From a virus, in the IMG/VR virus record IMGVR_UViG_3300045988_115217: DNA of 64,000 nt, one strand, 5' to 3'. Positions 2 through 55,255 of the stretch are shown here, one piece after another. Each line of letters opens with the position of its first letter. Position 1 is the first letter of the stretch. The translations under genes and the position numbers were made by a program. Under the pieces are notes generated by a model. The model saw only the letters and a program-made list of their open reading frames with translations. It was not told where the DNA came from and did no database searches.

Positions 2-3000
2 TCAGATGCCGAGGCAGAAGCCATAAAGCGAGTTACAGAACGCTTGCAAGAGGGAAAGGTTTCTGAGGATGAGTATTTGCGCACGAAAGAGGCAGCAGAA
101 AAATATTTGGATCAACTCAGCCAAGAACGTATTGAGCTATATGAGAAGCAACAACGAGCATACGAAAGATACCAAGACGCATTTAATGAAGGTATTGGCG
201 CAGATGATGCAACAAAAGCCGCAGCAAATGCGAAAGCTCACACGTATATTTCTGCTTACAATAACCTTGGAGGACAGGTTAAGGATGCAGATGCGCAAAT
301 CAGAGCAATACAAGAAAGTTTGACCTCATTAAATAGCGCATACGAGAAACTCAACCAGACTAAGCAACAACAGGCACAAGCAACCTCGCAGACGCAGCAA
401 CAGGAGAAAGAGCAGACAGACAAGGAAGCCGATGCCATCAAGGCAAAGACCGAGGAGATTAAACGCTTACAATCTGAATATGCGAAACTTTCAGAGCAAC
501 GTCCGAACTTTTGGGGACTTGGCACAGATATAAAGGAGCAGAAATTTCCTTTTGAAACTCTTATAGAGTGGAACAAACAGACGGGCGAGGCTAGACAGAA
601 GATTTACGAAGCAGAAGCAGAACTTGAAAAAATGAAAATCGCCGCCGCCGATGTAAAGAACGAAACCGCCGATATGTGGGCAGGAATGACGAAAGAAGAT
701 ATTGCTGGAGTTATCAAAGAGAACGTGGAACAGCTAAAAGTCTTGAAAAGCGAATATCAAGATATTACGAAGGTTTACGGCTCAAATTCTGACGAGGCGA
801 AGAAGAACAAGCAACAGCAAGAAGAGATAACAAAGGAAATACTTGAAGGCAAGGACCGCTTGAAGGAAATGGGCGTATCTTACGAAGATGTCACGAAGCA
901 AGCGAAGAACGCAGCGAAAGCCACAAAAGATATTGGCGATGAAGCGAGCAAGGCAGACGACAAAGCAAAGGGTATCTTTGATAAGTTGAAGTCCTTTGCT
1001 TCAAAGGGCTTGAATCCCGAGAATATTCTTTCCCTTGTTTTCTCGCCAAAGGGAGCAACAATGGCGGGTATTACAGCCGTAGCCGCTGGCTTAAAGAATC
1101 TTTCACAGATTAACGAGCAGTTAGCGGAATCAATGATACCGCTAAAGGCTTACGTTGATGGCGGCACGCTTGAAGAACTGAGAGAGCAGTTTGTTGCACT
1201 TGAATATGATAGCAGCCACTCAGCGGAGGAGATGGCAGCAGGAGCAACACGATGGGTAAAGTACTTTGAGGGTTTGCGTGGAAATGCCGACGCAATAGCA
1301 GATGTTACAAAGTCTTCAAACGACTTTGCAACCGTGCTTGGAAAAACCTCAAACGAGGCAGCAAGCTATCAGTTGAAGATAGCTGGAGCGTACCATCAGA
1401 CGGCACTTCAAGCGAAAGAGAATAGCACGATTATTATTAATGCTACAAAGAAGAGTACCACAACGTATGACGAAATGGCGCAAGCCTTGGCACAGACGGC
1501 TAATAGAGCACAAAACGCTGGCGTTTCTTTTAAAGAACTCGCAGCCGCCACAAGTTATGGTACAAGCACGTTTGGCAGCGCGAGCGAGGCGGCAAGCGCA
1601 TACGTTATGATGATGACCCGACTTTCCGCACAATCAAAGAACGAGTACAACCCGAGCGTAGTGGGTGCGACAAAGGCACTGCAAAACTTGGCGAAATCTC
1701 ACGAAATGAATGCACTCCTTACAAGTCTCCTTGGTAAAAGACAGGCTTCCCTTTCAAAAGTATTTGTGCAAGGCGCAGCAAATATTAAGCAGATGCAACA
1801 GGGTTTGGATGATGAGACAAGCGCAGCAAAAACACTTGCAGGAGCAGAAAGTAAAATTGAAGAACAAGAAAAACGACTTGCAAATGCAAAGAGAGCACTT
1901 GCGCATGAAATAAATGTAAACCTTACACCAGCTTACGCAAATTTTTTGGAGGATTGTAGTAGTGTTATTAAGACTATCGGAAATTGGGGTACAACAATTA
2001 AGAACTCGTTAAAATCCACGCTGCAATGGATTAATTCGGTGGATAATGCCATCAAAGATAGTACTATCTATAAATTATTCGGTACATCAACCGCTGAATT
2101 AAAAAAAACATCAAAAGGAGGTTTGCGCTTGAATATTGATAAGATATTAAGCGGAAAGGATGAAAATAGCTTTTGGGATAATCATTTTAATGGTTTTACG
2201 GGTAATTTAACTTTGAAAGAATATAATGATAAAAGAAGAAAGAAAATACAAGAAGATTTAAAAAAGATATATAATCAGAATTTGAAGAAATATGGCGCAA
2301 ATTCAGCAGGAAAAGCCATGATGGCAACAATAAAAGCGTACAATCATAATTCAGAGTTTGATTACAAAAGAGGGCTTTTTACAGGAAAAGAAATAAATGA
2401 TTATGTTGCAAAGATGGTAGCAACAACAAGACTGGAGAATAAATCAAAGGTTAGAGGTGAGTCGCTTGCAATCGGCAGCTTTAACGGCATACCTGACTCT
2501 AAAGGCGAAAATAAATTAAAGCAGTTACAGGAACAGCAAAGAAAATTTAGAGAACAAGAAGCAGAGCAAGAAGTAAAAGACCTTGCAAATACCGAAAAGG
2601 TGAAATGGGATTTATATGTCGCAGAAAAGGAAGCAGGAATCGCACGCATGGAGAGCGCAACAGAGAAAGAAGTGGCTCAACACAAGTTAGATTACGAAAA
2701 ACAAAAGCACGCAATCGAAGAAGAGGCGAAGAACCTGCTGCAAACGAATATCGCAGCCGCAAAACAAAAATACGAGAAGAACCCCGACAACAAGAAAAAG
2801 GAGGGTTTTTATGCAAGTGGACTGGATAAGCAAGTCTCTTTAACAAGCGACCAAAAGGCACTCATACAAGCGAAATACGATACACTGAACGCACAAGAAA
2901 AAGCATACGACCTGCAACAGTTAAAAGCAAAAACACAAAGCCTTTATGATTACTTGAAGGAATACGGAACTTTCAAGGAGCAACAACTTGCAATCGCAAA

Positions 3001-5152
3001 AGAATACGACGAGAAGATAAGAGCCGCAGAATCGCAGGGCGACACATATAAAGTAAAGTCTTTGCAAGCTGAGAAGCAAAAGCAAATTGGCGATACGAAA
3101 GCAAAAGAGATAGAAAGCAGAATTGACTACACTAAGGTGTTTGGAGATTTTGGTGTTATTCTGAGAGAGCAGATGGACGATATTTTGAAAAACATGAAGG
3201 CTTTTTCAAAAACGGACACTTTCAAGGCAAAGCCTATCAATGAGCAAAAGGATTTTCTTTCCCGTATGAATGAGTTATCCAATCAGTACGGCACAAGCAA
3301 GTGGAAAGATATTAATTTCTCACAACTTGGCAAGCTGATTAATGACTATAATCAGAAGTTAAAGAAGAGAAACGAAGCAGAGGAAAAACTCAATGTATCA
3401 AGTAAGAATTTGGCAGAAGCACAGGAAGCCTATGAAAATGCGATGAAGAGCGGAAACGATATGCAAAAGCTTGATGCAAAGGGAAAACTCGGAAATGCGC
3501 AGATAGAGAATGACAACAACAGAAAAGCCTTGGCAGATGCTGATGCCAACCTCGTAGGCGCACAAAGCAACGTAACAGACTCAGCGCAGAAACTTAGCGG
3601 TACTTTAAATTCGCTTGATGCGCTTTTAAACAATATGAAAAGCGGTTCTATTTCTAACGTATGGAACTCTTTCGTGGATTTTGATAAAAAAGTGAATGGT
3701 GGTAAGGCAACACAAGCAGTTACCGACACGGTAGGAAAGGTACTTGGTAAAGCATTTGCAGGCAAATCTGACTTAATATCTCAGATTATCGGAGCAGTTC
3801 TTACTTTGCTTGATACAATCGCAGAGCAAGGAATCGGTGGTATTGTTGGTGGGTTGATAGATAGCGTTTTGGGAGCTATAAATGGTTTGCTTGATAATTT
3901 ATTGAGCGGCAAATTTATGGAGCAAATCGGAGAATCACTCATTAACGGTATTGGTGGAATTATTGATAATGTTATTGGAAAGCTGGGAAGTGTTCTGTCA
4001 TTTGGTGCTTTATCCTCGAAAGGTCCGAGCGCATGGTTTGAAAACTCAAACGCAGAAAAGGTAGAGGAAGCAATCAACAACCTTTCAGACAGAAATAAGA
4101 GTTTGCAACAATCAATAGATGACTTAAACGACACGATGAAGAATAGCAGTGGCGCGAAGTCTGTTGAAGCGTACAAAGAAGCTTACAAGTTACAGGAAGA
4201 GCAAAATGAGAACTACAAAAAGATAGCACAAGAACAGGCTGGTTATCATGGCGCACACGGTTCTTGGAATAAGTATTGGGGCGGTTTTTCGAGCGAAGAA
4301 ATAAGTCGAATAAAGGAGATTACTGGTAGAAATGATTTTAGCGGTAACCTTTGGGACTTATCACCCGAAGAAATGAAGAAACTTCGTGGAGGTGCGATTG
4401 ATATTTGGGAACGTATCAAAAACACAGGTAAGGGCGGCTACGGTAGTAGATTAACAGATAAACTGGATGATTATATCGACCAAGCCGATAAGTTGCAAGA
4501 ACTCACAGACCAAATAAATGAAAGTTTGACACAGGTTTCTTTTTCATCAATGAAAGATGATTTCGTCTCTAATCTGATGGATATGGAAAAGAATGCCGAA
4601 GATTTTGCAAACGACTTTAGTGAAATGATGCAAAAGTCCGTCTTGCGCTATGATTTGGAGAACCTCCTTAATACTGACTTAAAAAAGTTGTACGAAAAAT
4701 GGGGAGCAAAGATGCAAGAGGGTAATTTATCAAAAGATGATATTGATAACCTCAAAAAAGAGTATGACGATTTAGTAAAGAAGGGTATCGAACAACGTGA
4801 TTATTGGGCAAAGATTACTGGCTATACTGGCGAAAGCTCTCAGTCTCAACAAACGGCAACGGGCAAGGGTATTGAGGCTATCACCGCAGACCAAGCGAGC
4901 AGCCTTATCGGTATCGGCTATGCTGTTCAATCTGCTATCGAGGTGGGTAATGAGACAAGAAAGCAAATATCTGTTGATATTTCTTCCTTGCGTATCTTCG
5001 CAGAACAGACAGCAAACAATATCTCAGAAATGAGAGATATTCAGTATCAAGGGTTGGAACAACTGGAGGCGATAAATAAGAATACTGCACCAATTATTCT
5101 TATTCGTGAAGACATCGCAAGTATGTATAAATTAATGAAGGAAAATTATTAA
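2..5152 (+). CDS. Tail tape measure protein (5' end outside window)
   Basis: Frame open from nt 2; >1700 aa; coiled-coil Q/E/K-rich stretches, TP901-type TMP core-like segment (AGITAVAAGL...YVMMMTRL), Gly/Ile-rich hydrophobic patch; directly precedes tail genes. Confidence 0.85.
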   Translation, partial: SDAEAEAIKRVTERLQEGKVSEDEYLRTKEAAEKYLDQLSQERIELYEKQQRAYERYQDAFNEGIGADDATKAAANAKAHTYISAYNNLGGQVKDADAQIRAIQESLTSLNSAYEKLNQTKQQQAQATSQTQQQEKEQTDKEADAIKAKTEEIKRLQSEYAKLSEQRPNFWGLGTDIKEQKFPFETLIEWNKQTGEARQKIYEAEAELEKMKIAAADVKNETADMWAGMTKEDIAGVIKENVEQLKVLKSEYQDITKVYGSNSDEAKKNKQQQEEITKEILEGKDRLKEMGVSYEDVTKQAKNAAKATKDIGDEASKADDKAKGIFDKLKSFASKGLNPENILSLVFSPKGATMAGITAVAAGLKNLSQINEQLAESMIPLKAYVDGGTLEELREQFVALEYDSSHSAEEMAAGATRWVKYFEGLRGNADAIADVTKSSNDFATVLGKTSNEAASYQLKIAGAYHQTALQAKENSTIIINATKKSTTTYDEMAQALAQTANRAQNAGVSFKELAAATSYGTSTFGSASEAASAYVMMMTRLSAQSKNEYNPSVVGATKALQNLAKSHEMNALLTSLLGKRQASLSKVFVQGAANIKQMQQGLDDETSAAKTLAGAESKIEEQEKRLANAKRALAHEINVNLTPAYANFLEDCSSVIKTIGNWGTTIKNSLKSTLQWINSVDNAIKDSTIYKLFGTSTAELKKTSKGGLRLNIDKILSGKDENSFWDNHFNGFTGNLTLKEYNDKRRKKIQEDLKKIYNQNLKKYGANSAGKAMMATIKAYNHNSEFDYKRGLFTGKEINDYVAKMVATTRLENKSKVRGESLAIGSFNGIPDSKGENKLKQLQEQQRKFREQEAEQEVKDLANTEKVKWDLYVAEKEAGIARMESATEKEVAQHKLDYEKQKHAIEEEAKNLLQTNIAAAKQKYEKNPDNKKKEGFYASGLDKQVSLTSDQKALIQAKYDTLNAQEKAYDLQQLKAKTQSLYDYLKEYGTFKEQQLAIAKEYDEKIRAAESQGDTYKVKSLQAEKQKQIGDTKAKEIESRIDYTKVFGDFGVILREQMDDILKNMKAFSKTDTFKAKPINEQKDFLSRMNELSNQYGTSKWKDINFSQLGKLINDYNQKLKKRNEAEEKLNVSSKNLAEAQEAYENAMKSGNDMQKLDAKGKLGNAQIENDNNRKALADADANLVGAQSNVTDSAQKLSGTLNSLDALLNNMKSGSISNVWNSFVDFDKKVNGGKATQAVTDTVGKVLGKAFAGKSDLISQIIGAVLTLLDTIAEQGIGGIVGGLIDSVLGAINGLLDNLLSGKFMEQIGESLINGIGGIIDNVIGKLGSVLSFGALSSKGPSAWFENSNAEKVEEAINNLSDRNKSLQQSIDDLNDTMKNSSGAKSVEAYKEAYKLQEEQNENYKKIAQEQAGYHGAHGSWNKYWGGFSSEEISRIKEITGRNDFSGNLWDLSPEEMKKLRGGAIDIWERIKNTGKGGYGSRLTDKLDDYIDQADKLQELTDQINESLTQVSFSSMKDDFVSNLMDMEKNAEDFANDFSEMMQKSVLRYDLENLLNTDLKKLYEKWGAKMQEGNLSKDDIDNLKKEYDDLVKKGIEQRDYWAKITGYTGESSQSQQTATGKGIEAITADQASSLIGIGYAVQSAIEVGNETRKQISVDISSLRIFAEQTANNISEMRDIQYQGLEQLEAINKNTAPIILIREDIASMYKLMKENY

Positions 5153-12475: not shown

Positions 12476-15274
12476 ATGAAAAAAATAGTAAAAGGTAACG
12501 ACTTCACACTGAAGATACCAGTGATGAAGATGGTAGAGGGGCGACCACAGACTTTTCCTCTGCCAGCCTGTACAGATGTGGTGGTACAGGTTTGTAATCA
12601 ATTCAGACGCATCCCTCTTGCGTTTGAAATTGACGTAAAGGAGGACAATGTTATCCTTGCGAGAGTAGAGGGTGACAAGATGAGCCTTGGCACTTATGCC
12701 ATCGAGGTAAGGGGTAAGATATTCGGCAATGACTGGCGAAGCAGCGAATACCCTCAGTTTTCCATCGTAGCCAAGAATGCCGATGCCGATACCGAGTTTG
12801 TTGAGACTGACGAGGGCGACAACAGCGTGGAGATGGATACCGCTATGGTTATCCTCCCTCCTTCCGTGGAGTTGAGTGACCTCATTAATAAGGCTAACGA
12901 GGCTTTGAAAAACAACAAGGAAACAAACGATACCCTCAATATTAACGAGGAAGCGAGAAAAGAAGCAGAGACGCAACGAGTATCTGCCGAGTCCGAGCGA
13001 GTATCTGCCGAACAGACGAGAGTATCTGCTGAGGATGCTCGCATGAAGGCAGAGGTCAGTCGTGTAAGTGCAGAATCCGACCGTGCAAGAGCGGAAGATG
13101 CACGCACTAAAATCGAGATTGAGCGACAGGCAAATGAACTTACCCGAAAGGATAACGAGACGAAGCGTGTCAATGCTGAAACATTAAGGAACAATGCCGA
13201 GAAGTTGCGTGTCTTGCAAGAGAATGAGCGCAAGGGTAACGAGGACGTTCGTAAGTCAGATGAGGATGCACGTATCAAGGCTGAAAGCGCACGTAGCAAG
13301 GCTGAGACCAAGAGAGAGGAAGATTTCTCTGCATCCAAGGAAGCCGCTGACAACGCAACCGAAAAGGCTTTATCTACTTATTCCCACCCTCCTTATGCTG
13401 ATAGCGATGGTTTCTATTACAAGTGGAATCCTGACACGCAGAGTTACGACAAGACGGATGTGAACTTGAAGGCGCAGCCTAGCAAACCAGCCTTTGTCTT
13501 TAAGTCGGTTGAAGAAATGGAGACTACGGACATAAATAACTTCGACCTGTATGATTATGTTATCATCAATACCGACGATACAGAGGATGAGGACAATGCG
13601 AAGCTGTACCTCATAGACAAGAACGAGGATGGTACAAAATATTACCATTACCTTGTTGATATGAGCGGTTTCCGTGGATTTGCTGGCAAGACACCTCAAA
13701 TCTCCATCGGAACGATTACCACCCTACTTCCTAGCGAGAAGGCTAGTGTAGCCATGACCAGCGACGGTATGGATGAGCAAGGAAACCCCAAATACGTCAT
13801 TAACTTCGCTATTCCGCAAGGACGGAAAGGCGATAAGGGTGATTCATTTTCTTACGCTGACTTCACGGCAGAGCAAATCAAGGAGCTACAAAAACCTGCT
13901 ACTGATGCTATTGCAACACTTGGTCAGACTAAGGTGGATTGTGAGAATGCTACAAAGGCAGCAAACGATGCTGCTTCTGACGCTACCGTAGCTAAGACCA
14001 AGGCAGAGAACGCTGCTTCTGGGGCAGAGAAGTGTAACGTCATCCTTGAAGGCTCTACCGTCAAGGTGACTGACAGAAACGGAGAAACCAAGTCTGTAGA
14101 TGTTATTAATACGAATGAGGAAGTGACCGTCACCATCGCCTCTTCCGTGGAATCCATCAAGGTAGCTGGCATTAAGATTAATGTATTCTTGAATAACGGC
14201 AAGACCCCCCAGACCTATACAACAGATACAGAGGGTAAGGCGACCTTCACTATCGACAGAGGTAACTATTATCAGGTGACGTTTCCTGAGTATGGCAATG
14301 CGCAGCCTATCGCTCCTCAAGGCTATACAGCAGTATTGGGTAGCCGTAATATCAATGTGGAGTATCTGCCATACGATGAGGATAGTATGGAGAAGGTGAT
14401 TATCACGGCTACTAAATACGATGATAACGTGGGGACGGCATGGGAAGGTATTCCTGTTATCGTGACTGTTGATAGAAAGGCTACCACCTATCAGACGGAT
14501 GCAAAAGGTCAGGTAACGGTATTCGTACCATATAAGAAGGAATATACTGTAAGAATTGATAATCAGGATGGCTATAACGTTAGCTTTAACAAAAATTCAA
14601 GAACTAATACAGCGAATGTTCCCCAGAGACTTATCGACTACAGATTCTATCAGTTTAAGGCGGGTATTTTTGTAGTAGATGCAAACAAAAACGAATATTA
14701 CATCGAGGACTGGGTGGCAGCAGGTAAGAGCTCTGATGATGCGGTAGCTATCAAAGTGGCGGATGCCTCATTATCTATCAATCATGGCACTTTCTGCATT
14801 CGTACAAGTGACATTAAGAACGTGTCGCAGTTGGTCAGCAAACAATGGTGTACACAGAACTTACAGTTCGATTCTATCGCCCTGAATGGTAATAATGTAA
14901 AAGATGCGAATTACTACAACGGAGAATCTTCATCATACCTTATCAGACAGGAGGCTCAGGAGCGAAGTTTATCTGTGCCTGCTTTTGATTATGCGTATGA
15001 ACAGATATTCACAATCGGTGGTGAAGAACTTCATGGTTTCATCATGTCGGTAGGTCAGGAATACGTACATGTAGCTAATATCGGTATCATCAAGCAGGTG
15101 CTGGAGACCCTGTATGGCGAGGAAGTAGCTACTAATTATTACGACTTTGTGATGAAGAGATACAGATGGACTTCTACGCAGGACAGCGCTACGTACGCTT
15201 GGTTCTTCAGTAGTAGTGCAAACTTCAACCTCAAGTGGCTCAGTTTCGTGGTCCTGCCGGTTTACGCTTGTTAA
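12476..15274 (+). CDS. Tail fibre / receptor-binding protein, DGR target (variable protein)
   Basis: 932 aa; RVSAE/ARxKAE coiled-coil repeats; C-terminus DUF1566/C-type-lectin-like and carries VR (last 30 codons) matching TR downstream. Confidence 0.85.
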   Translation: MKKIVKGNDFTLKIPVMKMVEGRPQTFPLPACTDVVVQVCNQFRRIPLAFEIDVKEDNVILARVEGDKMSLGTYAIEVRGKIFGNDWRSSEYPQFSIVAKNADADTEFVETDEGDNSVEMDTAMVILPPSVELSDLINKANEALKNNKETNDTLNINEEARKEAETQRVSAESERVSAEQTRVSAEDARMKAEVSRVSAESDRARAEDARTKIEIERQANELTRKDNETKRVNAETLRNNAEKLRVLQENERKGNEDVRKSDEDARIKAESARSKAETKREEDFSASKEAADNATEKALSTYSHPPYADSDGFYYKWNPDTQSYDKTDVNLKAQPSKPAFVFKSVEEMETTDINNFDLYDYVIINTDDTEDEDNAKLYLIDKNEDGTKYYHYLVDMSGFRGFAGKTPQISIGTITTLLPSEKASVAMTSDGMDEQGNPKYVINFAIPQGRKGDKGDSFSYADFTAEQIKELQKPATDAIATLGQTKVDCENATKAANDAASDATVAKTKAENAASGAEKCNVILEGSTVKVTDRNGETKSVDVINTNEEVTVTIASSVESIKVAGIKINVFLNNGKTPQTYTTDTEGKATFTIDRGNYYQVTFPEYGNAQPIAPQGYTAVLGSRNINVEYLPYDEDSMEKVIITATKYDDNVGTAWEGIPVIVTVDRKATTYQTDAKGQVTVFVPYKKEYTVRIDNQDGYNVSFNKNSRTNTANVPQRLIDYRFYQFKAGIFVVDANKNEYYIEDWVAAGKSSDDAVAIKVADASLSINHGTFCIRTSDIKNVSQLVSKQWCTQNLQFDSIALNGNNVKDANYYNGESSSYLIRQEAQERSLSVPAFDYAYEQIFTIGGEELHGFIMSVGQEYVHVANIGIIKQVLETLYGEEVATNYYDFVMKRYRWTSTQDSATYAWFFSSSANFNLKWLSFVVLPVYAC
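15175..15266 (+). repeat. DGR variable repeat (VR)
   Basis: 92 nt colinear with TR at constant offset 684; 13 mismatches, all at TR adenines; 3' 20 nt identical. Confidence 0.9.
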
Positions 15275-15385
15275 TCTCTTTATCTCTTCAAAATCTCTTC
15301 CTCTCTCCATGCAAGCAGCGAGCAAGCGGCGAGCAATGAGCAGGGAGGGATATAAGAGCAATTTTTAATTTCATTCCCTTAAAAA

Positions 15386-15994
15386 ATGGCATTTGCAGAG
15401 GATTTGTACATATATAAAGATACGCTACTCTTGTGCAAGATATTACTCAGGTATAGCAATAGCGTGAGTAGAACCGTCAGGTTTACAACCTACAATGAAG
15501 CGGTCGTCAAGTCTTGTACAGCTCTTGACTTGGTTAGGAGAATTAACGAAAGTTGGGAGAATAGAGAGGAGCGTATGCACGATTATATTCTGCTTATGTC
15601 GGAAGTCAAGTCAAGAATCAGCCTCCTCACGGATGCCGAGTTCTTAAACAAGAAACAGGCAACCAACCTTAATATGATGTCAGACAAGGTACTGAAGGAG
15701 GTGTATGGCTGGCGGAAGTCTGAGCGGAAGCGCAAAGGCGAGAATTGCAGAGTCAACGACAATGCAAGAGTGTCGTCACTGAATGTGACAAGGGGTACAA
15801 TCACGCAACTCACTTATGTGAGAAGTGAACAGACTGGAAAACAGAGAATGTACCGAGATACGCAGAACAGCGCTACGAACGCTTGGAACTACAGTAGTAG
15901 TGCAAACAACAACAACAAGTGGAACAGTAACGTGGTCCTGCCGGTTTACGATTATCCAACAGTGGCGAATGCCTCTGTATTTGCTATTTTTTAA
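15386..15994 (+). CDS. avd: Avd-like DGR accessory protein (ORF continues through TR)
   Basis: First ~120 aa predicted helical with basic tail (WRKSERKRKGE), located between target and TR/RT; ORF has no stop before 15994. Confidence 0.6.
   Translation: MAFAEDLYIYKDTLLLCKILLRYSNSVSRTVRFTTYNEAVVKSCTALDLVRRINESWENREERMHDYILLMSEVKSRISLLTDAEFLNKKQATNLNMMSDKVLKEVYGWRKSERKRKGENCRVNDNARVSSLNVTRGTITQLTYVRSEQTGKQRMYRDTQNSATNAWNYSSSANNNNKWNSNVVLPVYDYPTVANASVFAIF
15859..15950 (+). repeat. DGR template repeat (TR)
   Basis: A-rich (31 A by my count, many AAC codons) copy of VR, 49 nt upstream of RT start. Confidence 0.9.
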
Positions 15995-15999
15995 GGGAT

Positions 16000-17166
16000 A
16001 TGAAATTTGAGAAAGAGTATGTTACGATAGAAGAGGTGTATGCCGCCTATTATGACTGCTGTAAGCATAAAGGTTCGACACCGGGCTGTATCGAATACCA
16101 GATGAATTATATTGCGAATAATTATCAACTGTATGTCGAATTAAATTCGATGTCATACGAGATAAGTAAAAGTAAGGCATTCTGTGTGACGAGACCAAAG
16201 CTTCGGGAGGTGTTTTGCGCAGACTTCCGTGACCGCATCATTCACCATCTGCTTGCTATCAAGTTCACGGATATACTCGAAGGCGAAATGACAGATAAGG
16301 CGTATGCCTGCCGTAAGGGTAAGGGTACTGATTACGGTATCGCTGATGTCAAGAAGCAAATAAAGCGAGTGAGCGATAACTATACTAAGGAAGCATGGAT
16401 ATTGAGAGGTGATTTACAGGGCTTCTTCATGAGCATCAATCGCGCGCTCCTTTATAGCCTCCTTGAGAAAGTTATCAGAAAAAAGTATCATGGAAGTGAT
16501 ATGGAATGGTGGCTGTGGTTATGGAAGAAAGTTGTCTTGCATGACCCGACAAAAAACTGTGTCCGAGTAGGCGATTTGAGTTTGTGGGATAAGCTTCCTG
16601 CTAACAAGTCGCTCTTTACATGCGGTGAGGGCAAGGGACTCCCTATCGGCAACCTACCGTCACAACTTCTTGCCAATCTCTTGCTATCTCAATTCGATAA
16701 ACTGATGATAGAGCGAGTGGGCAAAGATGGTGGATATGGCAGATATGTAGATGATTTCCTGGTTATCAGTAGGGATGAAAAGCTACTTCTGAATATTCTG
16801 CAAGAGGCAAGGAGCTATCTGTTGGAAGAGCTTGGTCTTACGTTGCATCCTCATAAGGTTAGCCTTCAGAGGGCAGCAAGCGGAGTAAGGTTTACAGGCG
16901 CATTAATTCGCCCAGGCAGGATGCTTCCAAACTTGCGAACGATAGAACATCTGTATGACGTGATTGATAGGTTTGGGATAGAATCTGACCCGAAAAGCGA
17001 AGTCTTACAGAGGTATGTGAGTCGTATCAATAGTCTGATGGGTGTACTTGTGCATTACAACACCTATAATATCAGGCGTAAGACATGGGCGATGATGCCC
17101 TATAAGAACAGAGTTTTCTGTGTCAATATGAAGAAAATTAGAATAATGAATAAATATAAAACGTAA
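16000..17166 (+). CDS. DGR reverse transcriptase
   Basis: 388 aa; RT motifs including YVDDFLV (YxDD) and DGR-signature IGNLPSQ; immediately 3' of TR. Confidence 0.92.
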   Translation: MKFEKEYVTIEEVYAAYYDCCKHKGSTPGCIEYQMNYIANNYQLYVELNSMSYEISKSKAFCVTRPKLREVFCADFRDRIIHHLLAIKFTDILEGEMTDKAYACRKGKGTDYGIADVKKQIKRVSDNYTKEAWILRGDLQGFFMSINRALLYSLLEKVIRKKYHGSDMEWWLWLWKKVVLHDPTKNCVRVGDLSLWDKLPANKSLFTCGEGKGLPIGNLPSQLLANLLLSQFDKLMIERVGKDGGYGRYVDDFLVISRDEKLLLNILQEARSYLLEELGLTLHPHKVSLQRAASGVRFTGALIRPGRMLPNLRTIEHLYDVIDRFGIESDPKSEVLQRYVSRINSLMGVLVHYNTYNIRRKTWAMMPYKNRVFCVNMKKIRIMNKYKT

Positions 17167-17172
17167 AAGATT

Positions 17173-17763
17173 ATGGAGAAAATTAATTTTATCAAAGCCT
17201 TTATCCCTAAAGGCGATTTTAATGAAAAGTATGAGCACGGAGGAATGATGGTTCGTCATCTTGCTGCTGTGCTTGACGAGAAGATGGGAGCGTACGAATG
17301 CTACGAGTGTACCGTGCCTATCGGTGAGTACGATGAAAACGGGGTACAGAAGGCATTTACTGAGTTTTCGGCTAAGATGGATGCCTTAAAACTTAAACAG
17401 GCAAAGGTTGACAAGATAGCCGAGATAACAGCCTACGACACATCGGACAAGGTGAACGGCTTTGTGTTGAATGGGTTACTGGTGTGGCTCGACAAGGCGA
17501 CACGTGTAGGATTGATGAACTCAACTACCATTGCTAAGGCAGCAGGCCAAGAAACGACAACTCTGTGGCTTGGAGGACTGAAACTGGTGGTGGATTGTGA
17601 TAAGGCTATTCAGTTACTCTCTGCGCTTGAGATGTATGCCCTGGAATGCTTCAATGTGACGGCAAGTCATAAGGCAGCAGTAAACGAACTGACGACCATC
17701 GAAGAGGTGGAAGCCTACGACTATAAGGCTGGCTATCCGAAGATGCTTGAGATGAGTGTGTAA
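17173..17763 (+). CDS. Hypothetical protein, DUF4376-like (tail-fibre associated?)
   Basis: 196 aa; C-terminal half recalls DUF4376 pattern (WLDKATRVGL...YPKML); weak recall-based call. Confidence 0.4.
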   Translation: MEKINFIKAFIPKGDFNEKYEHGGMMVRHLAAVLDEKMGAYECYECTVPIGEYDENGVQKAFTEFSAKMDALKLKQAKVDKIAEITAYDTSDKVNGFVLNGLLVWLDKATRVGLMNSTTIAKAAGQETTTLWLGGLKLVVDCDKAIQLLSALEMYALECFNVTASHKAAVNELTTIEEVEAYDYKAGYPKMLEMSV

Positions 17764-52450: not shown

Positions 52451-55255
52451 ATGTCTAAGAAGCTCACATCAAAACAACAGAAAGAACAACTGAATAATCT
52501 GTTCGCCGTTTATAACAAGCGGTTGGGCAGATTATACAGCGATTATGTCAAGAAGCTCACCTCTCTTGGCTATGGAGAAGATGTGCTCGAAGATGATGCG
52601 CTTTTTAACTTTGATAACTTTCCGCAGTTAAAGGCTCGTCTGAACGACATCTTTAATGATTACTATCAGAATAGCCTTCTTTGTTATAAGAGCGGCATCA
52701 CCGATAGCGTTGCGTTGGCGTATAACCACGATAAAATGGTAATAGGCGGTTATTCCGTGCTTACTGATAAAGCTATAAGGGTCGCACGAGATACCGCCGC
52801 AGCCACGTTTATTTCAAATCGCTTAAAAACAAAGAACGGATTGAATCTCGCTCAGACTGTTTGGAACTACTGCCAACAGACGAAGAGTGAGTTTGAAATG
52901 GCTATGAGTAATACCATTGCGGACGGAATTAAACAAGGCTCATCAGCAGAGGAAATAGGCAAAAGCATTCGCAGATACCTCAACGACCCAGATATGATGT
53001 ATCGCCGTTATCATACCATCAAGGTTCAGAAGAACGGAAAGAAGAAAGATGTGGTGACTTGGCGCAGACGTAGAATCATAGACGGCAAGGTACGCTTCAT
53101 TGAAGAGCCATTGGAGAAGGTAGGCATGGGTGTTTACCGCTCAGCAAGAAAGAATGCTCTCAGAGTAGCAAGAACGGAAATAAATTCAGCATATCATAAG
53201 GCAAGAAATGAACGATGGCAGAACGAGCCGTTCGTTATCGGTCAGTATATTCATGTGTCTCCACAGCACAATATTGATGATATATGCAACGACCTTGAAG
53301 GTCGCTATCCGAAAGATTTCGATTGGCGAAGTTGGCATTCGAACTGTATCTGCACCTCAGACCCTATCACCATACAAGGCGAGGAGAAGAAGGAGTTTTA
53401 TAAACGCTTGATGGCTGGCGAGGATATGAGCAACTACGTATCCCCTTTTGCCGTGCTCACCATGCCCGAAAAGTACAATCAGTACATCAAGGATAACTCC
53501 GAAGCTATCGTGAAGGCAGGAATGAGGGGTAAATTGGCTTGGCATTTACAAGATAATACAAAGTATTGGGCACACCTTTTAAGCCAGTCAGACCGCAATA
53601 AATTGGGGTTAAAGGCGGTTTCTTCTAGGGACCTTATACTTGCGAAAGCAAAGGAACGTCACGCCCTTAGAACTAAAGAGCAGATAGATAAGATACAGAG
53701 CCGATGGGATAAGCATAGACGTGACTATTACAATGGCTTGGTCCATAATCTGCTCGGAAGCAAATCTGTTACAGATATAAAGAGCCAAGACCTCTTTGAA
53801 CGTTACTATGCTATCCGCTACGCAATCAAGGACAAAAAGAGTGCTTCTGAAATAGCTTCTTTGTTTGATAGATTCAAGCGAGGTTATCAAACCAAACTTG
53901 CATGGACTGACCGCAAGGTTGCTATGAATGTTATGAAGGTGGCTGCTAATTACGGAGAGACCGATATTTCTTCCATTCTAAGCGCATTAAAATCTGCTGA
54001 CTATACATTGGCTAGGAAAGAAGCAAAAACACTCGCAAACACCATTTTTGCCATCAAAAAGGATGAGCAATCGCTTTCTGCTCTCATCCCTGATGTCAAT
54101 AAGTGGCATAAGCAGTTCACGTCACAGGAATTGCACGGAGTATATGATGCCGTAGAAGCGAAGTTGGCTCAATGGCAAAGCTTGACGCTTGAAAAGCAAG
54201 CTAGCAAATTGCAATTTGAGGCAGTTAATTTCCTTGGTGGAAATATGCACGGGGTTCAACAGAAGTATGCTACATGGAAGGTATCGCAAGCAGCATATTT
54301 CAAAAAGCTTGATGAGGTAAATACGGCAATTGATTGGATAAATATCAATAAAGCCTACGGCGATGTAAAGGGTTATAAGACACAGAGCAAGATATATCAT
54401 AAGCTTATCTATGACCTTGAACATGCTATGCTTGCAAAAGATAAGACCCTTGCTGAGCAGTTGCTTTATGAAGCTAAGCAAAAGAAAGAAACGCTTATTA
54501 ATGCGAAAGCAAAACGAAATGCGAAGAATGTTGTATTTGATACAGACCGATTCTCTCAATCAAGGAAAGATGCCGCAGTATGGGATAAGGGTAATGGTGC
54601 AAAAGCAGATAAAACCCTCATAGATACTGCATCCAAACAATGGATAGCAGCAACAGAAAAAGAAAAAGATTTCACATACGAATACACTCATCATTATTGC
54701 GATGTAAATGAACCATTACAAGGAAGAAAATATGATAATTACCAAACGAAGGAAAGATTTATAGAGAAGGTTAATAATATAACAAGCTATATAGAAAAGA
54801 ACGAACTTCCTACCGATATGTGGTTTACAAGAGGTGATGATGGAATGAAAGTTATTGAATCACGAATTAAGTTCGCTGGCGGTTCTATGCCAAATAACCT
54901 TCAAGACCTTGTTGGAATGGAAATGCAAGAAGGTGGTTTTATGTCAACTGGTAGCCGAAAAGGAAAAGGCTTCAATACTCGAAGCGTTATTATGAACATA
55001 TATGCACCAAAAGGAACAAAGGCTGCTTACGTAGAACCTTTCTCTGCTTTCGGTTGTGGTGATAAAAGAAGTTGGGATGGAGTAAGTCGTTTCTCTACAT
55101 ATAGTTCCGAGCACGAAACACTCTTTCAGAGAGGAACACGAATGCGAATAACAAAGGTTTATGAAGAAGATGGAAAGACCTACATAGACTGCGAGGTTAT
55201 AGGACAAGAAATAAGAGATTTATCTTATGTAAAGGATAGCAATATCGGATATTAA
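52451..55255 (+). CDS. MuF/SPP1-gp7-like head protein fused to C-terminal ADP-ribosyltransferase toxin domain
   Basis: MuF core ARTEINSAYH...WHSNCIC; C-terminal R-S-E triad WFTRG / GFMSTGS / SEHETLFQRG. Confidence 0.8.
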   Translation: MSKKLTSKQQKEQLNNLFAVYNKRLGRLYSDYVKKLTSLGYGEDVLEDDALFNFDNFPQLKARLNDIFNDYYQNSLLCYKSGITDSVALAYNHDKMVIGGYSVLTDKAIRVARDTAAATFISNRLKTKNGLNLAQTVWNYCQQTKSEFEMAMSNTIADGIKQGSSAEEIGKSIRRYLNDPDMMYRRYHTIKVQKNGKKKDVVTWRRRRIIDGKVRFIEEPLEKVGMGVYRSARKNALRVARTEINSAYHKARNERWQNEPFVIGQYIHVSPQHNIDDICNDLEGRYPKDFDWRSWHSNCICTSDPITIQGEEKKEFYKRLMAGEDMSNYVSPFAVLTMPEKYNQYIKDNSEAIVKAGMRGKLAWHLQDNTKYWAHLLSQSDRNKLGLKAVSSRDLILAKAKERHALRTKEQIDKIQSRWDKHRRDYYNGLVHNLLGSKSVTDIKSQDLFERYYAIRYAIKDKKSASEIASLFDRFKRGYQTKLAWTDRKVAMNVMKVAANYGETDISSILSALKSADYTLARKEAKTLANTIFAIKKDEQSLSALIPDVNKWHKQFTSQELHGVYDAVEAKLAQWQSLTLEKQASKLQFEAVNFLGGNMHGVQQKYATWKVSQAAYFKKLDEVNTAIDWININKAYGDVKGYKTQSKIYHKLIYDLEHAMLAKDKTLAEQLLYEAKQKKETLINAKAKRNAKNVVFDTDRFSQSRKDAAVWDKGNGAKADKTLIDTASKQWIAATEKEKDFTYEYTHHYCDVNEPLQGRKYDNYQTKERFIEKVNNITSYIEKNELPTDMWFTRGDDGMKVIESRIKFAGGSMPNNLQDLVGMEMQEGGFMSTGSRKGKGFNTRSVIMNIYAPKGTKAAYVEPFSAFGCGDKRSWDGVSRFSTYSSEHETLFQRGTRMRITKVYEEDGKTYIDCEVIGQEIRDLSYVKDSNIGY

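What the first reader, a model, noticed from the sequence alone, without database searches (positions are those of the whole stretch)
12476..17166. Complete diversity-generating retroelement aimed at the C-terminus of a 932-aa tail fibre
TR (15859-15950) and VR (15175-15266, the last 30 codons of ORF 12476-15274) align without gaps. In my base-by-base alignment there are 13 mismatches, and every one is an adenine in TR (13 of 31 TR adenines) replaced by G, T or C in VR. They fall in the first two positions of AAC codons (N to D/Y/F/L) plus one TAC to TTC. The 3' 20 nt (cgtggtcctgccggtttacg) are identical and nearly A-free, which is IMH-like. Gene order target-avd-TR-RT matches mtd-avd-TR-brt of Bordetella phage BPP-1. 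The RT has YVDD and the DGR-type IGNLPSQ motif. This implies programmed hypervariation of about 10 receptor-contacting residues of this phage's fibre. It is the clearest system in the window. DGRs as a class are known, so any novelty lies in this host/phage lineage and its target architecture.
Basis: partly seen in the sequence, partly recalled or inferred. Interest (0 to 1): 0.8.

Follow-up and report, generated by a model that had tools for sequence, protein, structure and literature searches.

The report
Working hypermutation cassette on phage tail protein
This uncultured gut-type phage carries a complete and recently active diversity-generating retroelement that rewrites the last 30 codons of a 932-aa tail-module protein; it is a clear example of an already well-known kind of system.

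Summary
VR 15175-15266 and TR 15859-15950 align without gaps. All 13 mismatches sit on TR adenines (13 of 31; hypergeometric P = 9e-8). These are the only two copies in the window.

The cassette is target (12476-15274), avd (15386-), TR, RT (16000-17166). The RT's best solved relative is the Bordetella phage BPP-1 DGR RT (E 1e-29, against 1e-8 for group II and retron-type RTs). The accessory protein folds as an Avd four-helix bundle (TM 0.86 to 4DWL).

Eight related metagenomic genomes show the element at work. Diversity is 0.44 at VR positions opposite TR adenines and 0.008 at the other VR positions. Two contigs that differ at 0.35% of flanking sites differ at 10 of 92 VR sites, all opposite TR adenines.

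The variable domain has no Pfam, PDB or GenBank-phage match. A profile comparison links it to DUF1566/Lcl_C DGR targets (probability 96.7%). A C-type lectin fold was not shown directly. "Tail fibre" rests on gene position.

Verdict: new member of a known kind. Side observations are TR drift at adenine sites, an avd ORF frameshifted into TR, and relatives that have lost the RT or the whole cassette.

The parts
12476..15274 (+). DGR target gene, 932 aa. It has an N-terminal coiled-coil-like repeat region, Ig/prealbumin-like beta-sandwich region(s) and a C-terminal variable domain. It lies in the tail module, after the tape-measure protein and a 2284-aa tail protein.
   Evidence: ORF list. PHROG hits to virion structural protein and minor tail protein. 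Weak Pfam SdrD_B/SpaA matches. Neighbouring genes.
14900..15271 (+). C-terminal variable-protein domain (about 124 aa), a remote relative of DUF1566/Lcl_C-type DGR targets. It has invariant W-C near its start and a terminal ...VLPV[Y/F]AC.
   Evidence: hhalign of a 60-sequence family profile against the Bacuni phage DUF1566 target profile: probability 96.7%, E 4e-10, 116 columns. The family comprises about 170 clusters at 50% identity, and the domain is at the C-terminus in the matches listed, with a few ending 15-25 residues short of it. No Pfam or PDB sequence hit.
15175..15266 (+). Variable repeat (VR), codons 900-931 of the target.
   Evidence: Pairwise diversity among 8 genomes is 0.44 at TR-A positions and 0.008 at other positions.
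15248..15287 (+). Candidate IMH. It consists of the G+C-rich core GTGGTCCTGCCGG (shared with TR) followed by VR-specific sequence (TTTACG|CTTGTTAATCTC...) that diverges from the TR flank.
   Evidence: The extent and function are inferred by analogy with BPP-1 (PMC5758913).
15274..15350 (+). Conserved pyrimidine-rich tract followed by purine-rich (GCGAGCAA)n-like repeats downstream of VR. It contains no BPP-1-type G+C hairpin. Its role is unknown.
   Evidence: The predicted long-loop hairpin is not better than shuffled sequence (z = -0.22).
15386..15784 (+). avd, encoding the accessory variability determinant core (about 133 aa, a basic four-helix bundle).
   Evidence: PHROG 3206 'Avd protein of DGR', E 7e-5. 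AF2 gives 4 helices with pLDDT about 90. Foldseek matches 4dwl, 8ub7 Avd chains, 2gsc and 2rld with target-normalised TM 0.8-0.89. pI 9.45. Strong third-codon-position bias in substitutions.
15785..15994 (+). Read-through extension of the avd ORF, which makes it 202 aa in all. A 1-nt insertion at about 15784 bypasses the ancestral TGA, so the ORF runs through TR in the VR reading frame. This is probably incidental.
   Evidence: Alignment with L018 and L016, where Avd stops at 133 aa. No third-position bias in the extension (3/8/6 variable sites). pLDDT about 30.
15859..15950 (+). Template repeat (TR), with 31 adenines and 9 AAC codons in the VR frame.
15951..15999 (+). TR-to-RT spacer of only 49 nt. 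It includes the IMH*-side divergent flank (ATTATCCAAC...). Any BPP-1-like spacer RNA would have to extend into the RT coding region.
   Evidence: No conserved RNA structure was found.
16000..17166 (+). DGR reverse transcriptase, 388 aa, intact. It carries YVDD and LPIGNLPSQ, and keeps the counterparts of bRT R74 and I181.
   Evidence: Pfam RVT_1 E 7e-17. PHROG 1423 E 2e-74. PDB 8ub7_A (BPP-1 bRT) E 1.2e-29 against 2e-8 or weaker for other RT classes. The nearest phage RTs are those of DGR-bearing Bacteroides phages, at 40-42% identity.
17173..17763 (+). Neighbouring DUF4376, tail-fibre-like protein. It is not part of the DGR, but it shows that the cassette sits inside the tail-fibre module.
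   Evidence: Pfam DUF4376 E 6e-8. PHROG 1807 tail fiber protein.

Best explanation
This is a complete, functional diversity-generating retroelement of the commonest architecture (target-avd-TR-RT). It lies in the tail module of an uncultured tailed phage with integrase and RecT, whose structural genes resemble those of Bacteroidota phages.

Mechanism, inferred by homology with Bordetella phage BPP-1: an RNA spanning the avd 3' end, TR and spacer is bound by the RT-Avd complex. cDNA synthesis starts near the 3' end of TR and misincorporates opposite template adenines. The adenine-mutagenised cDNA then replaces VR (15175-15266). Direction is set by the sequence that follows the shared G+C-rich core, which differs between VR (IMH) and TR (IMH*).

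The result is rewriting of up to 19 codons, 9 of them AAC, in the last 32 residues of a 932-aa tail-module protein. That gives about 5e17 possible peptides on a DUF1566/Lcl_C-like domain, most likely to vary receptor binding.

Shown here: the TR/VR anatomy, the RT class, the Avd fold, and hypervariation restricted to TR-adenine sites in natural relatives. Inferred: RNA priming, IMH function, the fold of the variable domain, and receptor binding.
For: All 13 TR/VR mismatches are on TR adenines, P = 9e-8. Only two copies exist in the window.

The RT's best solved homologue is BPP-1 bRT (106.8 bits, E 1e-29), against 37 bits or less for group II, retron-type and Cas-linked RTs. It has IGxxxSQ and YVDD. 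It falls far below the NCBIfam cut-offs for group II, retron and DRT families. Its nearest phage relatives are DGR RTs of Bacteroides phages F2, F4 and Bacuni_F1, which share the same gene order.

The Avd model is a four-helix bundle that matches 4dwl and the Avd chains of 8ub7 (TM 0.8-0.86, rmsd about 2 A). Its pI is 9.45; Avd proteins average 9.5 (PMC5758913).

Across 8 related genomes, pairwise diversity is 0.44 at VR positions opposite TR adenines. It is 0.008 at other VR positions and 0.09 in the 300 nt upstream. Each genome's own VR differs from its own TR essentially only at adenines. Contigs 094112 and 132449 differ at 13 of 3667 flanking sites but at 10 of 92 VR sites, all opposite TR adenines.

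Protein-family entropy peaks at the AAC-templated residues. The variable domain is a remote homologue of DUF1566/Lcl_C DGR targets.
Against: There is no direct evidence of activity in this particular genome, because only one VR state is seen. No G+C hairpin or cruciform follows VR, although only 34% of DGRs have one (PMC5758913). The TR-RT spacer is 49 nt, against 140 nt in BPP-1, and no conserved RNA structure was detected. The C-type lectin fold was not recovered by AF2 and Foldseek. The tail-fibre and receptor-binding role rests on gene position only. Some relatives have lost the RT (L016) or the whole cassette (L100), so the element is dispensable.
Confidence: 0.93

Rival explanations
1. 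A DGR that was active in the lineage but is now inactive in this genome: a fossil VR/TR pair beside an RT that no longer homes.
For: Relatives show decay, with an internal RT deletion in L016 and cassette loss with a truncated 127-aa target in L100. The avd ORF is frameshifted at its 3' end relative to L018. Only one VR state can be seen in a single assembled window.
Against: The RT ORF is full length, has all catalytic motifs and is 86-91% identical to those of relatives. The Avd core is intact and under purifying selection. TR retains 31 adenines, the most among the relatives. Near-identical contigs with the same cassette have different VRs.
Confidence: 0.05
2. An ordinary 92-nt direct repeat from a duplicated gene 3' end, which diverged by chance or by selection on the protein, next to an unrelated retron, group II or defence RT.
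For: The top NCBIfam hit of the RT is the group II intron RT/maturase model (E 4e-25). TR lies inside an ORF.
Against: The group II score is 89 bits against a cut-off of 300, and the retron and DRT models are also far below their cut-offs. bRT is by far the best solved homologue. The adenine-only mismatch pattern has P = 9e-8 and recurs independently in every relative, including ones with different TRs. The non-adenine VR positions are more conserved (0.008) than the surrounding gene (0.09), which is the opposite of simple divergence.
Confidence: 0.01
3. The DGR diversifies a protein that is not a receptor-binding tail fibre, for example a virion-surface adhesin for mucus or other particles, or a non-structural protein.
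For: No tail-fibre-specific domain was found. Pfam and PDB give only Ig/prealbumin-like and coiled-coil-like matches. DUF1566/Lcl_C domains occur in bacterial adhesins. Non-structural DGR targets exist in gut phages (PMC8008677) and adhesin-like ones too (PMC10743442).
Against: The gene sits between the tape-measure, tail and 2284-aa tail genes and a DUF4376 tail-fibre-like gene, directly before the lysis genes. There are PHROG matches to minor tail and virion structural proteins. In relatives the same position holds 774-933-aa proteins with the same C-terminal domain.
Confidence: 0.25

Closest known systems
Bordetella phage BPP-1 DGR (mtd-avd-TR-brt)
   Same: Same gene order. VR lies at the 3' end of a tail-module gene. 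Mismatches are adenine-only and concentrated in AAC codons. The RT is homologous (28% identity, E 1e-29 to 8ub7_A) and has IGxxxSQ and YxDD. The accessory protein has the Avd four-helix-bundle fold. A G+C-rich shared core is followed by divergent IMH/IMH* flanks.
   Different: The target is 932 aa with a DUF1566/Lcl_C-like domain rather than the Mtd-type domain. VR is 92 nt rather than 134 nt. There is no G+C hairpin after VR. The TR-RT spacer is 49 nt rather than 140 nt. The avd ORF runs on through TR. The host phylum is different.
DGRs of Bacteroides uniformis phages Bacuni_F1/F2/F4 (PMC8143477)
   Same: These carry the closest RTs in GenBank phages (40-42% aa). The order is identical: target, avd, TR-containing ORF, RT, followed by the lysis genes. 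VR encodes the last ~30-35 residues. The target variable domain is related at profile level (probability 96.7%).
   Different: The Bacuni target is 253 aa and passes the Pfam Lcl_C threshold, whereas the window's domain does not hit Pfam at all. Bacuni has a second, remote VR and a GGTACGGC-GAAA-GCCGTACC hairpin after VR (PMC8143477). The Bacuni Avd matches Pfam bAvd strongly (E 5e-36), whereas the window's Avd does not. The phage backbones are unrelated (40 kb against about 70-89 kb).
Legionella pneumophila DGR / 'category d' (DUF1566, DUF823, Fib_succ_major; CLec2 VRs) of Wu et al. 2018 (PMC5758913)
   Same: The variable domain belongs to the same broad class by remote homology. The architecture is type B (avd-TR-RT). 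Conserved cysteines are present, as noted for Fib_succ_major proteins.
   Different: That element is cellular and diversifies a lipoprotein. It depends on a hairpin, and its targets are detectable by the Pfam/CDD models.
Other gut Bacteroidota phage DGRs: Hankyphage (PMC6199706), Quimbyvirus (PMC8008677), crAss-like LMMB (PMC7290462), tentaclin-bearing phages (PMC10743442)
   Same: Gut-associated phages of Bacteroidota that diversify C-terminal or surface-exposed lectin-like domains through AAC-rich TRs. Population comparisons show variation restricted to adenine sites.
   Different: No nucleotide similarity to any GenBank phage record. The portal is at most 33% identical to known phages. There is a single target and a single unbroken RT ORF, whereas Quimbyvirus has a three-frame RT and two targets. 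The variable domain is C-terminal, whereas in tentaclins the lectin domain is N-terminal.

Membership tests
Diversity-generating retroelement (DGR) | A TR/VR repeat pair whose differences are (almost) exclusively at adenines of TR | tested here: met
   13 of 13 mismatches are on TR adenines, P = 9e-8. The same holds in the relatives' own TR/VR pairs.
Diversity-generating retroelement (DGR) | A reverse transcriptase of the DGR clade (IGxxxSQ motif in place of QGxxxSP, plus YxDD), encoded next to TR | tested here: met
   The best PDB homologue is BPP-1 bRT (E 1e-29) against 2e-8 or weaker for group II, retron-type and other RTs. LPIGNLPSQ and YVDD align to the bRT motifs. Scores are far below the NCBIfam cut-offs for group II, retron and DRT. 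The nearest phage homologues are DGR RTs. No formal phylogeny was built.
Diversity-generating retroelement (DGR) | VR located at the 3' end of a protein-coding target gene, in frame, with TR adenines concentrated in AAC/AAY codons | tested here: met
   VR covers codons 900-931 of 932. There are 9 AAC codons. The only codon that can mutate to a stop is AAG (K920), and that residue is invariant in the family.
Diversity-generating retroelement (DGR) | An accessory variability determinant: a small basic four-helix-bundle protein (Avd), present in 74% of DGRs | tested here: met
   PHROG Avd hit, E 7e-5. The AF2 four-helix bundle has pLDDT about 90. Foldseek TM 0.8-0.86 to 4dwl and the Avd chains of 8ub7. 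pI 9.45. Pfam bAvd is not matched.
Diversity-generating retroelement (DGR) | IMH at the VR 3' end (G+C-rich start) with a non-identical IMH* at the TR 3' end | tested here: inconclusive
   The shared core GTGGTCCTGCCGG is followed by flanks that diverge after 15266/15950. This is consistent with IMH/IMH*, but function and extent cannot be tested in silico.
Diversity-generating retroelement (DGR) | A G+C-rich inverted repeat (hairpin/cruciform) downstream of IMH (BPP-1 and Legionella; only 34% of DGRs) | tested here: not met
   No such repeat was found. The DNA fold of 15260-15375 is no better than shuffled sequence (z = -0.22). This is not a universal feature (PMC5758913).
Diversity-generating retroelement (DGR) | Evidence of ongoing mutagenic homing: VR hypervariable at TR-adenine sites among otherwise near-identical genomes | tested here: met
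   10 of 92 VR differences against 13 of 3667 flank differences between contigs 094112 and 132449. Diversity is 0.44 at TR-A positions and 0.008 at other VR positions. Read-level data from the source sample were not available.
C-type-lectin-fold DGR variable proteins (Mtd / FGE-sulfatase / DUF1566-Lcl_C classes) | Variable residues displayed on a CLec-type fold | tested here: inconclusive
   The AF2 model has mean pLDDT 66.6 and below 40 over VR. There is no significant Foldseek match in PDB, and only two uncharacterised phage proteins match in BFVD.
C-type-lectin-fold DGR variable proteins (Mtd / FGE-sulfatase / DUF1566-Lcl_C classes) | Sequence membership in Pfam Lcl_C (PF07603, DUF1566) or related models | tested here: not met
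   None of 91 family members scanned hits Lcl_C, at E up to 1 for 31 of them and up to 0.01 for 60. Profile-profile comparison does show remote homology to a bona fide Lcl_C DGR target (probability 96.7%, E 4e-10). The domain is therefore a divergent relative, not a member by the curated threshold.
Phage tail fibre / receptor-binding protein | Recognisable fibre or RBP domains, or demonstrated location at the tail tip | tested here: inconclusive
   Support comes only from position in the tail module and weak PHROG matches to minor tail and virion structural proteins. There is no PDB or Pfam fibre domain.

The most novel reading that the evidence does not exclude
The template repeat may not be a fixed master copy in this lineage. 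Among relatives about 90% identical, TR varies almost only at adenine positions: 10 of 31 A sites against 1 of 61 non-A sites (Fisher P = 5e-5). The changes include the adjacent doublets AAC to TTC and AA to GG. This could mean that mutagenised information occasionally flows back into TR, either by VR-to-TR gene conversion or by self-homing. That would progressively 'freeze' residues and tune the mutable repertoire. The avd ORF running through TR, and the repeated loss of RT or of the cassette in relatives, would be further signs of rapid turnover of the element.
Probability: 0.12. Interest if true: 0.55.

Novelty: new member of a known kind. Interest (0 to 1): 0.3.

Why it matters
This is a clean example of a phage DGR supported by natural-population data. 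It comes from a phage lineage with no close relative among GenBank phage records; its nearest portal matches are about 30% identical and come from phages of Bacteroidota hosts. It also defines a C-terminal variable-domain family of about 170 clusters at 50% identity that curated domain libraries do not yet recognise.

For annotation, it shows that DUF1566-like DGR targets can be missed by Pfam. It also shows that a 202-aa 'avd' ORF can be an Avd core plus a frameshifted read-through of TR.

Biologically it implies programmed variation of a tail-module protein, probably for switching or broadening host range. It does not change the understanding of how DGRs work. The relatives with a complete cassette, a deleted RT or a lost cassette offer a natural series for studying DGR gain and loss.

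Tried and rejected
1. Megablast of the whole cassette against 50,697 GenBank phage records found no match. tblastn of the variable domain also found no match.

2. Hairpin or cruciform after VR: the inverted-repeat scan and the DNA fold gave nothing better than shuffled sequence. The terminator scan found nothing after VR.

3. Rfam scan of 15100-17300 at E up to 1 gave no hit.

4. Spacer-RNA structure: a long hairpin at about 15963-16047, spanning the RT start, appears in the single-sequence fold (z = -1.7). RNAalifold on 6 relatives found no consensus pairs, and the arms do not co-vary in L008. It was rejected.

5. C-type lectin fold by AF2 plus Foldseek: the model is poor over VR, there are no PDB matches, and BFVD gave only two uncharacterised phage proteins. 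An HMM profile searched against PDB sequences found nothing.

6. Pfam scans of 31 and 60 family members for Lcl_C or FGE-sulfatase found none.

7. Host identification: scanning GTDB genomes with the RT found no close prophage. With an RT alignment, only relatives 37-45% identical appeared, mostly in Bacteroidota MAGs. No tRNA genes are present in the window.

8. A second VR in the window was not found. Related contigs of 69-88 kb also show only one VR and one TR.

9. A functional Avd-TR fusion protein was rejected as unlikely. The extension shows no codon-position bias, has pLDDT about 30, and arises from a 1-nt indel.

10. The metagenome scan with a VR-3'-flank anchor gave only 3 additional loci, so the population sample stayed small at 8 genomes.

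Full report
**1. Observation**

VR (15175-15266) and TR (15859-15950) align without gaps over 92 nt. They show 13 mismatches, and every mismatch has an adenine in TR (13 of 31 TR adenines). The VR bases at those sites are T x10, C x2 and G x1.

In the frame of ORF 12476-15274, the changes hit positions 1-2 of AAC codons, giving GAC, TAC, TTC and CTC, plus one TAC to TTC. The probability that 13 random mismatches all fall on the 31 adenines is 9e-8. A degenerate pattern made from TR with A replaced by N finds only these two sites in the 64-kb window, with none expected by chance.

Homology can be stretched 6 nt further, with two more mismatches on TR adenines. Those two VR bases are invariant in all relatives, so they look like fixed IMH/IMH* differences.

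**2. Components**

*Reverse transcriptase.* ORF 16000-17166 (388 aa) is an RT (Pfam RVT_1 E 7e-17; PHROG 1423 E 2e-74).
- Among all PDB sequences its best match by far is the BPP-1 DGR RT (8ub7_A; 106.8 bits, E 1.2e-29). Group II intron, retron-type and Cas-fused RTs score 37 bits or less.
- The alignment places LPIGNLPSQ on bRT's IPIGSLTSQ and RYVDDF on RYMDDI. It also keeps the counterparts of bRT R74 and I181.
- NCBIfam models for group II, retron and DRT RTs are matched far below their cut-offs.
- In GenBank phages the nearest RTs (40-42% identity) belong to Bacteroides uniformis phages F2, F4 and Bacuni_F1. Their published DGR (PMC8143477) has the same order: target, avd, TR-ORF, RT.

*Avd.* ORF 15386-15994 weakly matches the PHROG 'Avd protein of DGR' over residues 1-120 (E 7e-5) but does not match Pfam bAvd.
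- An AF2 model built on 26 homologues gives four helices (residues 3-122, pLDDT about 90) and an unstructured tail.
- Foldseek's top hits are the Avd/23S-IVP four-helix bundles, including BPP-1 Avd (4dwl, target-normalised TM 0.86, rmsd 1.9 A) and the Avd chains of the DGR ribonucleoprotein 8ub7.
- The core is basic, with pI 9.45.

**3. Evidence that the element works in nature**

A scan of IMG/VR with the A-to-N pattern, plus one metagenome scan anchored on the VR 3' flank, recovered seven related genomes about 90% identical. More distant relatives came from human-gut (Hadza) and other metagenomes.
- In an alignment of eight genomes, pairwise diversity is 0.44 at VR positions opposite TR adenines and 0.008 at the other 61 VR positions. 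It is 0.09 in the 300 nt upstream (0.20 at third codon positions) and 0.03 downstream.
- Each genome's VR differs from its own TR only at adenines. The exceptions are one point change in contig 121432 and one in 122144, where TR itself has changed. The same holds in more divergent relatives with different TRs.
- The most telling pair is contigs 094112 and 132449 from one sample. They differ at 13 of 3667 flanking positions (0.35%) but at 10 of 92 VR positions, all opposite TR adenines.
- VR differences stay at 8-18 per 92 nt however diverged the backbones are.

**4. The target**

The 932-aa ORF follows the tape-measure gene (44-5152), a small tail protein and a 2284-aa tail protein. After it come the cassette, a DUF4376 tail-fibre-like gene and an amidase. 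It has PHROG matches to virion structural and minor tail proteins and weak Ig/prealbumin-like Pfam matches. No fibre-specific domain and no PDB homologue were found. 'Tail fibre' is therefore a positional inference.

The last ~145 residues define a family:
- 60 close clusters were found by word-indexed search, and 170 clusters at 50% identity by an exhaustive HMM search.
- In the matches listed the domain lies at the C-terminus of proteins of 82-1384 aa, with a few ending 15-25 residues short of it.
- The family pattern is RWTSTQxxAxxAWxxSSxAxxxxKxxSxxVLPV[F/Y]AC. Amino-acid entropy peaks (2.3-3.5 bits) at the AAC-templated residues.
- No member hits Pfam Lcl_C or any lectin model. An HMM profile finds nothing in PDB, and tblastn finds nothing in GenBank phages.
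- The AF2 model is mediocre (pLDDT 66.6, below 40 over VR) and has no informative Foldseek match.
- A profile-profile comparison of 60 diverse family members with the Bacuni DUF1566/Lcl_C target family gives probability 96.7% and E 4e-10 over 116 columns. It aligns GF(L/I)xSxGQ with WWLPSLGE, RWTSTQ..A..AW with YWSSTEYSA.DAW, and VLPVxA with VRPVSA (weaker with the shallow profile).

I therefore treat the domain as a divergent relative of the 'category d / CLec2' DGR targets of Wu et al. 2018 (PMC5758913). The fold itself is unproven.

The TR can in principle encode about 5e17 peptides. The only codon that can mutate to a stop is AAG (K920), and that lysine is invariant in the family.

**5. 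How it most likely works**

By homology with BPP-1 (established knowledge; PMC5758913, PMC5703328), an RNA containing the avd 3' end, TR and downstream spacer is bound by RT-Avd. cDNA synthesis starts near the TR 3' end with misincorporation opposite adenines, and the cDNA replaces VR.

In this element the shared G+C-rich core GTGGTCCTGCCGG and the flanks that diverge after 15266/15950 are consistent with IMH/IMH*. One relative has the lone adenine of the terminal 20-mer substituted. Mutagenesis therefore reaches at least TR position 90, and discrimination must use sequence downstream of 15266.

Differences from BPP-1:
- There is no G+C hairpin after VR, a feature present in only 34% of DGRs (PMC5758913). 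Bacuni_F1 does have one.
- A conserved pyrimidine-rich then purine-rich tract lies downstream of VR, and its meaning is unclear.
- Only 49 nt separate TR from the RT start. No Rfam hit or conserved structure was found there.

**6. Side findings**

(a) The 202-aa avd ORF is an Avd core plus a read-through. Compared with L018 and L016, where Avd ends at 133 aa with TGA, the window has one extra base at about 15784. This shifts the frame so that the ORF runs through TR in the VR frame. The extension shows no third-codon-position bias (3/8/6 variable sites, against 25/21/75 in the core) and is predicted disordered, so it is probably incidental.

(b) TR itself differs among close relatives almost only at adenine sites: 10 of 31 against 1 of 61 (Fisher P = 5e-5). 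The changes include the doublets AAC to TTC and AA to GG, and the adenine count ranges from 31 down to 25. Diversity at these sites (0.10) does not exceed third-codon-position diversity nearby (0.20). Relaxed constraint therefore suffices as an explanation, and VR-to-TR conversion or self-homing is not excluded.

(c) Relatives show decay. L016 has an internal deletion of the RT but retains avd, TR and VR. L100 lacks avd, TR and RT altogether, and its target is reduced to 127 aa.

**7. Context and novelty**

The window is a tailed phage with integrase, RecT, SbcC-like nuclease, terminase and portal genes. Its portal is at most 33% identical to those of Porphyromonas, Riemerella, Bacteroides and Cellulophaga phages. 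RT relatives in genomes are mostly from Bacteroidota MAGs. A Bacteroidota host is therefore likely but unproven, and no close prophage was found in GTDB representatives.

DGRs in gut Bacteroidota phages are well documented. Examples are Hankyphage (PMC6199706), Bacuni phages (PMC8143477), Quimbyvirus (PMC8008677), a crAss-like phage (PMC7290462) and tentaclin-bearing phages (PMC10743442). This is a new member of a known kind. What is new is the phage lineage, a variable-domain family that curated libraries do not recognise, and the small anatomical deviations listed above.

Noticed in passing
window 15859-15950 (TR); L002, L003, L005, L006, L007, L013, L014, L015: TR is not invariant among relatives about 90% identical. 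10 of 31 adenine sites vary, against 1 of 61 non-adenine sites. The changes include the adjacent doublets AAC to TTC and AA to GG, and the TR adenine count ranges from 31 to 25. This could be relaxed constraint, or VR-to-TR conversion or self-homing.
   Followed up: partly
window 15780-15994: A 1-nt insertion at about 15784, relative to L018 and L016, bypasses the ancestral avd stop (TGA, now out of frame at 15786-15788). The avd ORF therefore reads through TR in the VR frame, giving 202 aa instead of 133. The extension shows no coding-type substitution pattern and is predicted disordered.
   Followed up: yes
L016:4400-4770 (ENA ERZ15251062, Hadza contig NODE_722): This relative has target (933 aa), avd, TR and VR intact, but the RT gene is internally deleted, leaving only about 80 nt of its 5' end and about 60 nt of its 3' end. 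Its Avd sequence is seen on 14 contigs, so RT-less derivatives circulate.
   Followed up: partly
L100:5001-5384 (Logan SRR25477623); also proteins P0058 and P0059: This relative has no avd, TR or RT. Its 'target' is a 127-aa protein made of the first ~31 residues of the 932-aa protein fused to the last ~96 residues, with the junction at a short LPA/VPAF similarity.
   Followed up: partly
window 15274-15350: Immediately after the target stop codon there is a conserved pyrimidine-rich tract (TCTCTTTATCTCTTCAAAATCTCTTCCTCTCTCC). It is followed by purine-rich GCGAGCAA-like repeats whose copy number varies among relatives (extra units in contig 121432 and in L016). The canonical G+C hairpin seen after the Bacuni_F1 VR (GGTACGGC-GAAA-GCCGTACC) is absent.
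   Followed up: partly
window 15232-15234 (K920) and TR 15916-15918 (AAG): The TR codon AAG has two adenines and can mutate to the stop TAG. The templated lysine is invariant in all 31 family members aligned, which implies strong selection at that site. A Cys near the start of the domain (WCTQ) and the terminal Cys (…AC) are conserved in nearly all 31 members, suggesting a disulfide.
   Followed up: no
window 52451-55255: A 934-aa ORF combines a head-morphogenesis/minor-head-protein N-terminal part with a C-terminal Bxa-like ADP-ribosyltransferase domain (PHROG 16625, E 2e-122). It may be a virion-delivered toxin or effector.
   Followed up: no
window 12476-14600 compared with L002, L008 and L017-L019: The part of the target upstream of the variable domain is modular. 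Relatives carry 774-, 808-, 824-, 932- and 933-aa versions. In L002 the middle ~1 kb is non-homologous although the N-terminal and C-terminal ends are conserved.
   Followed up: no
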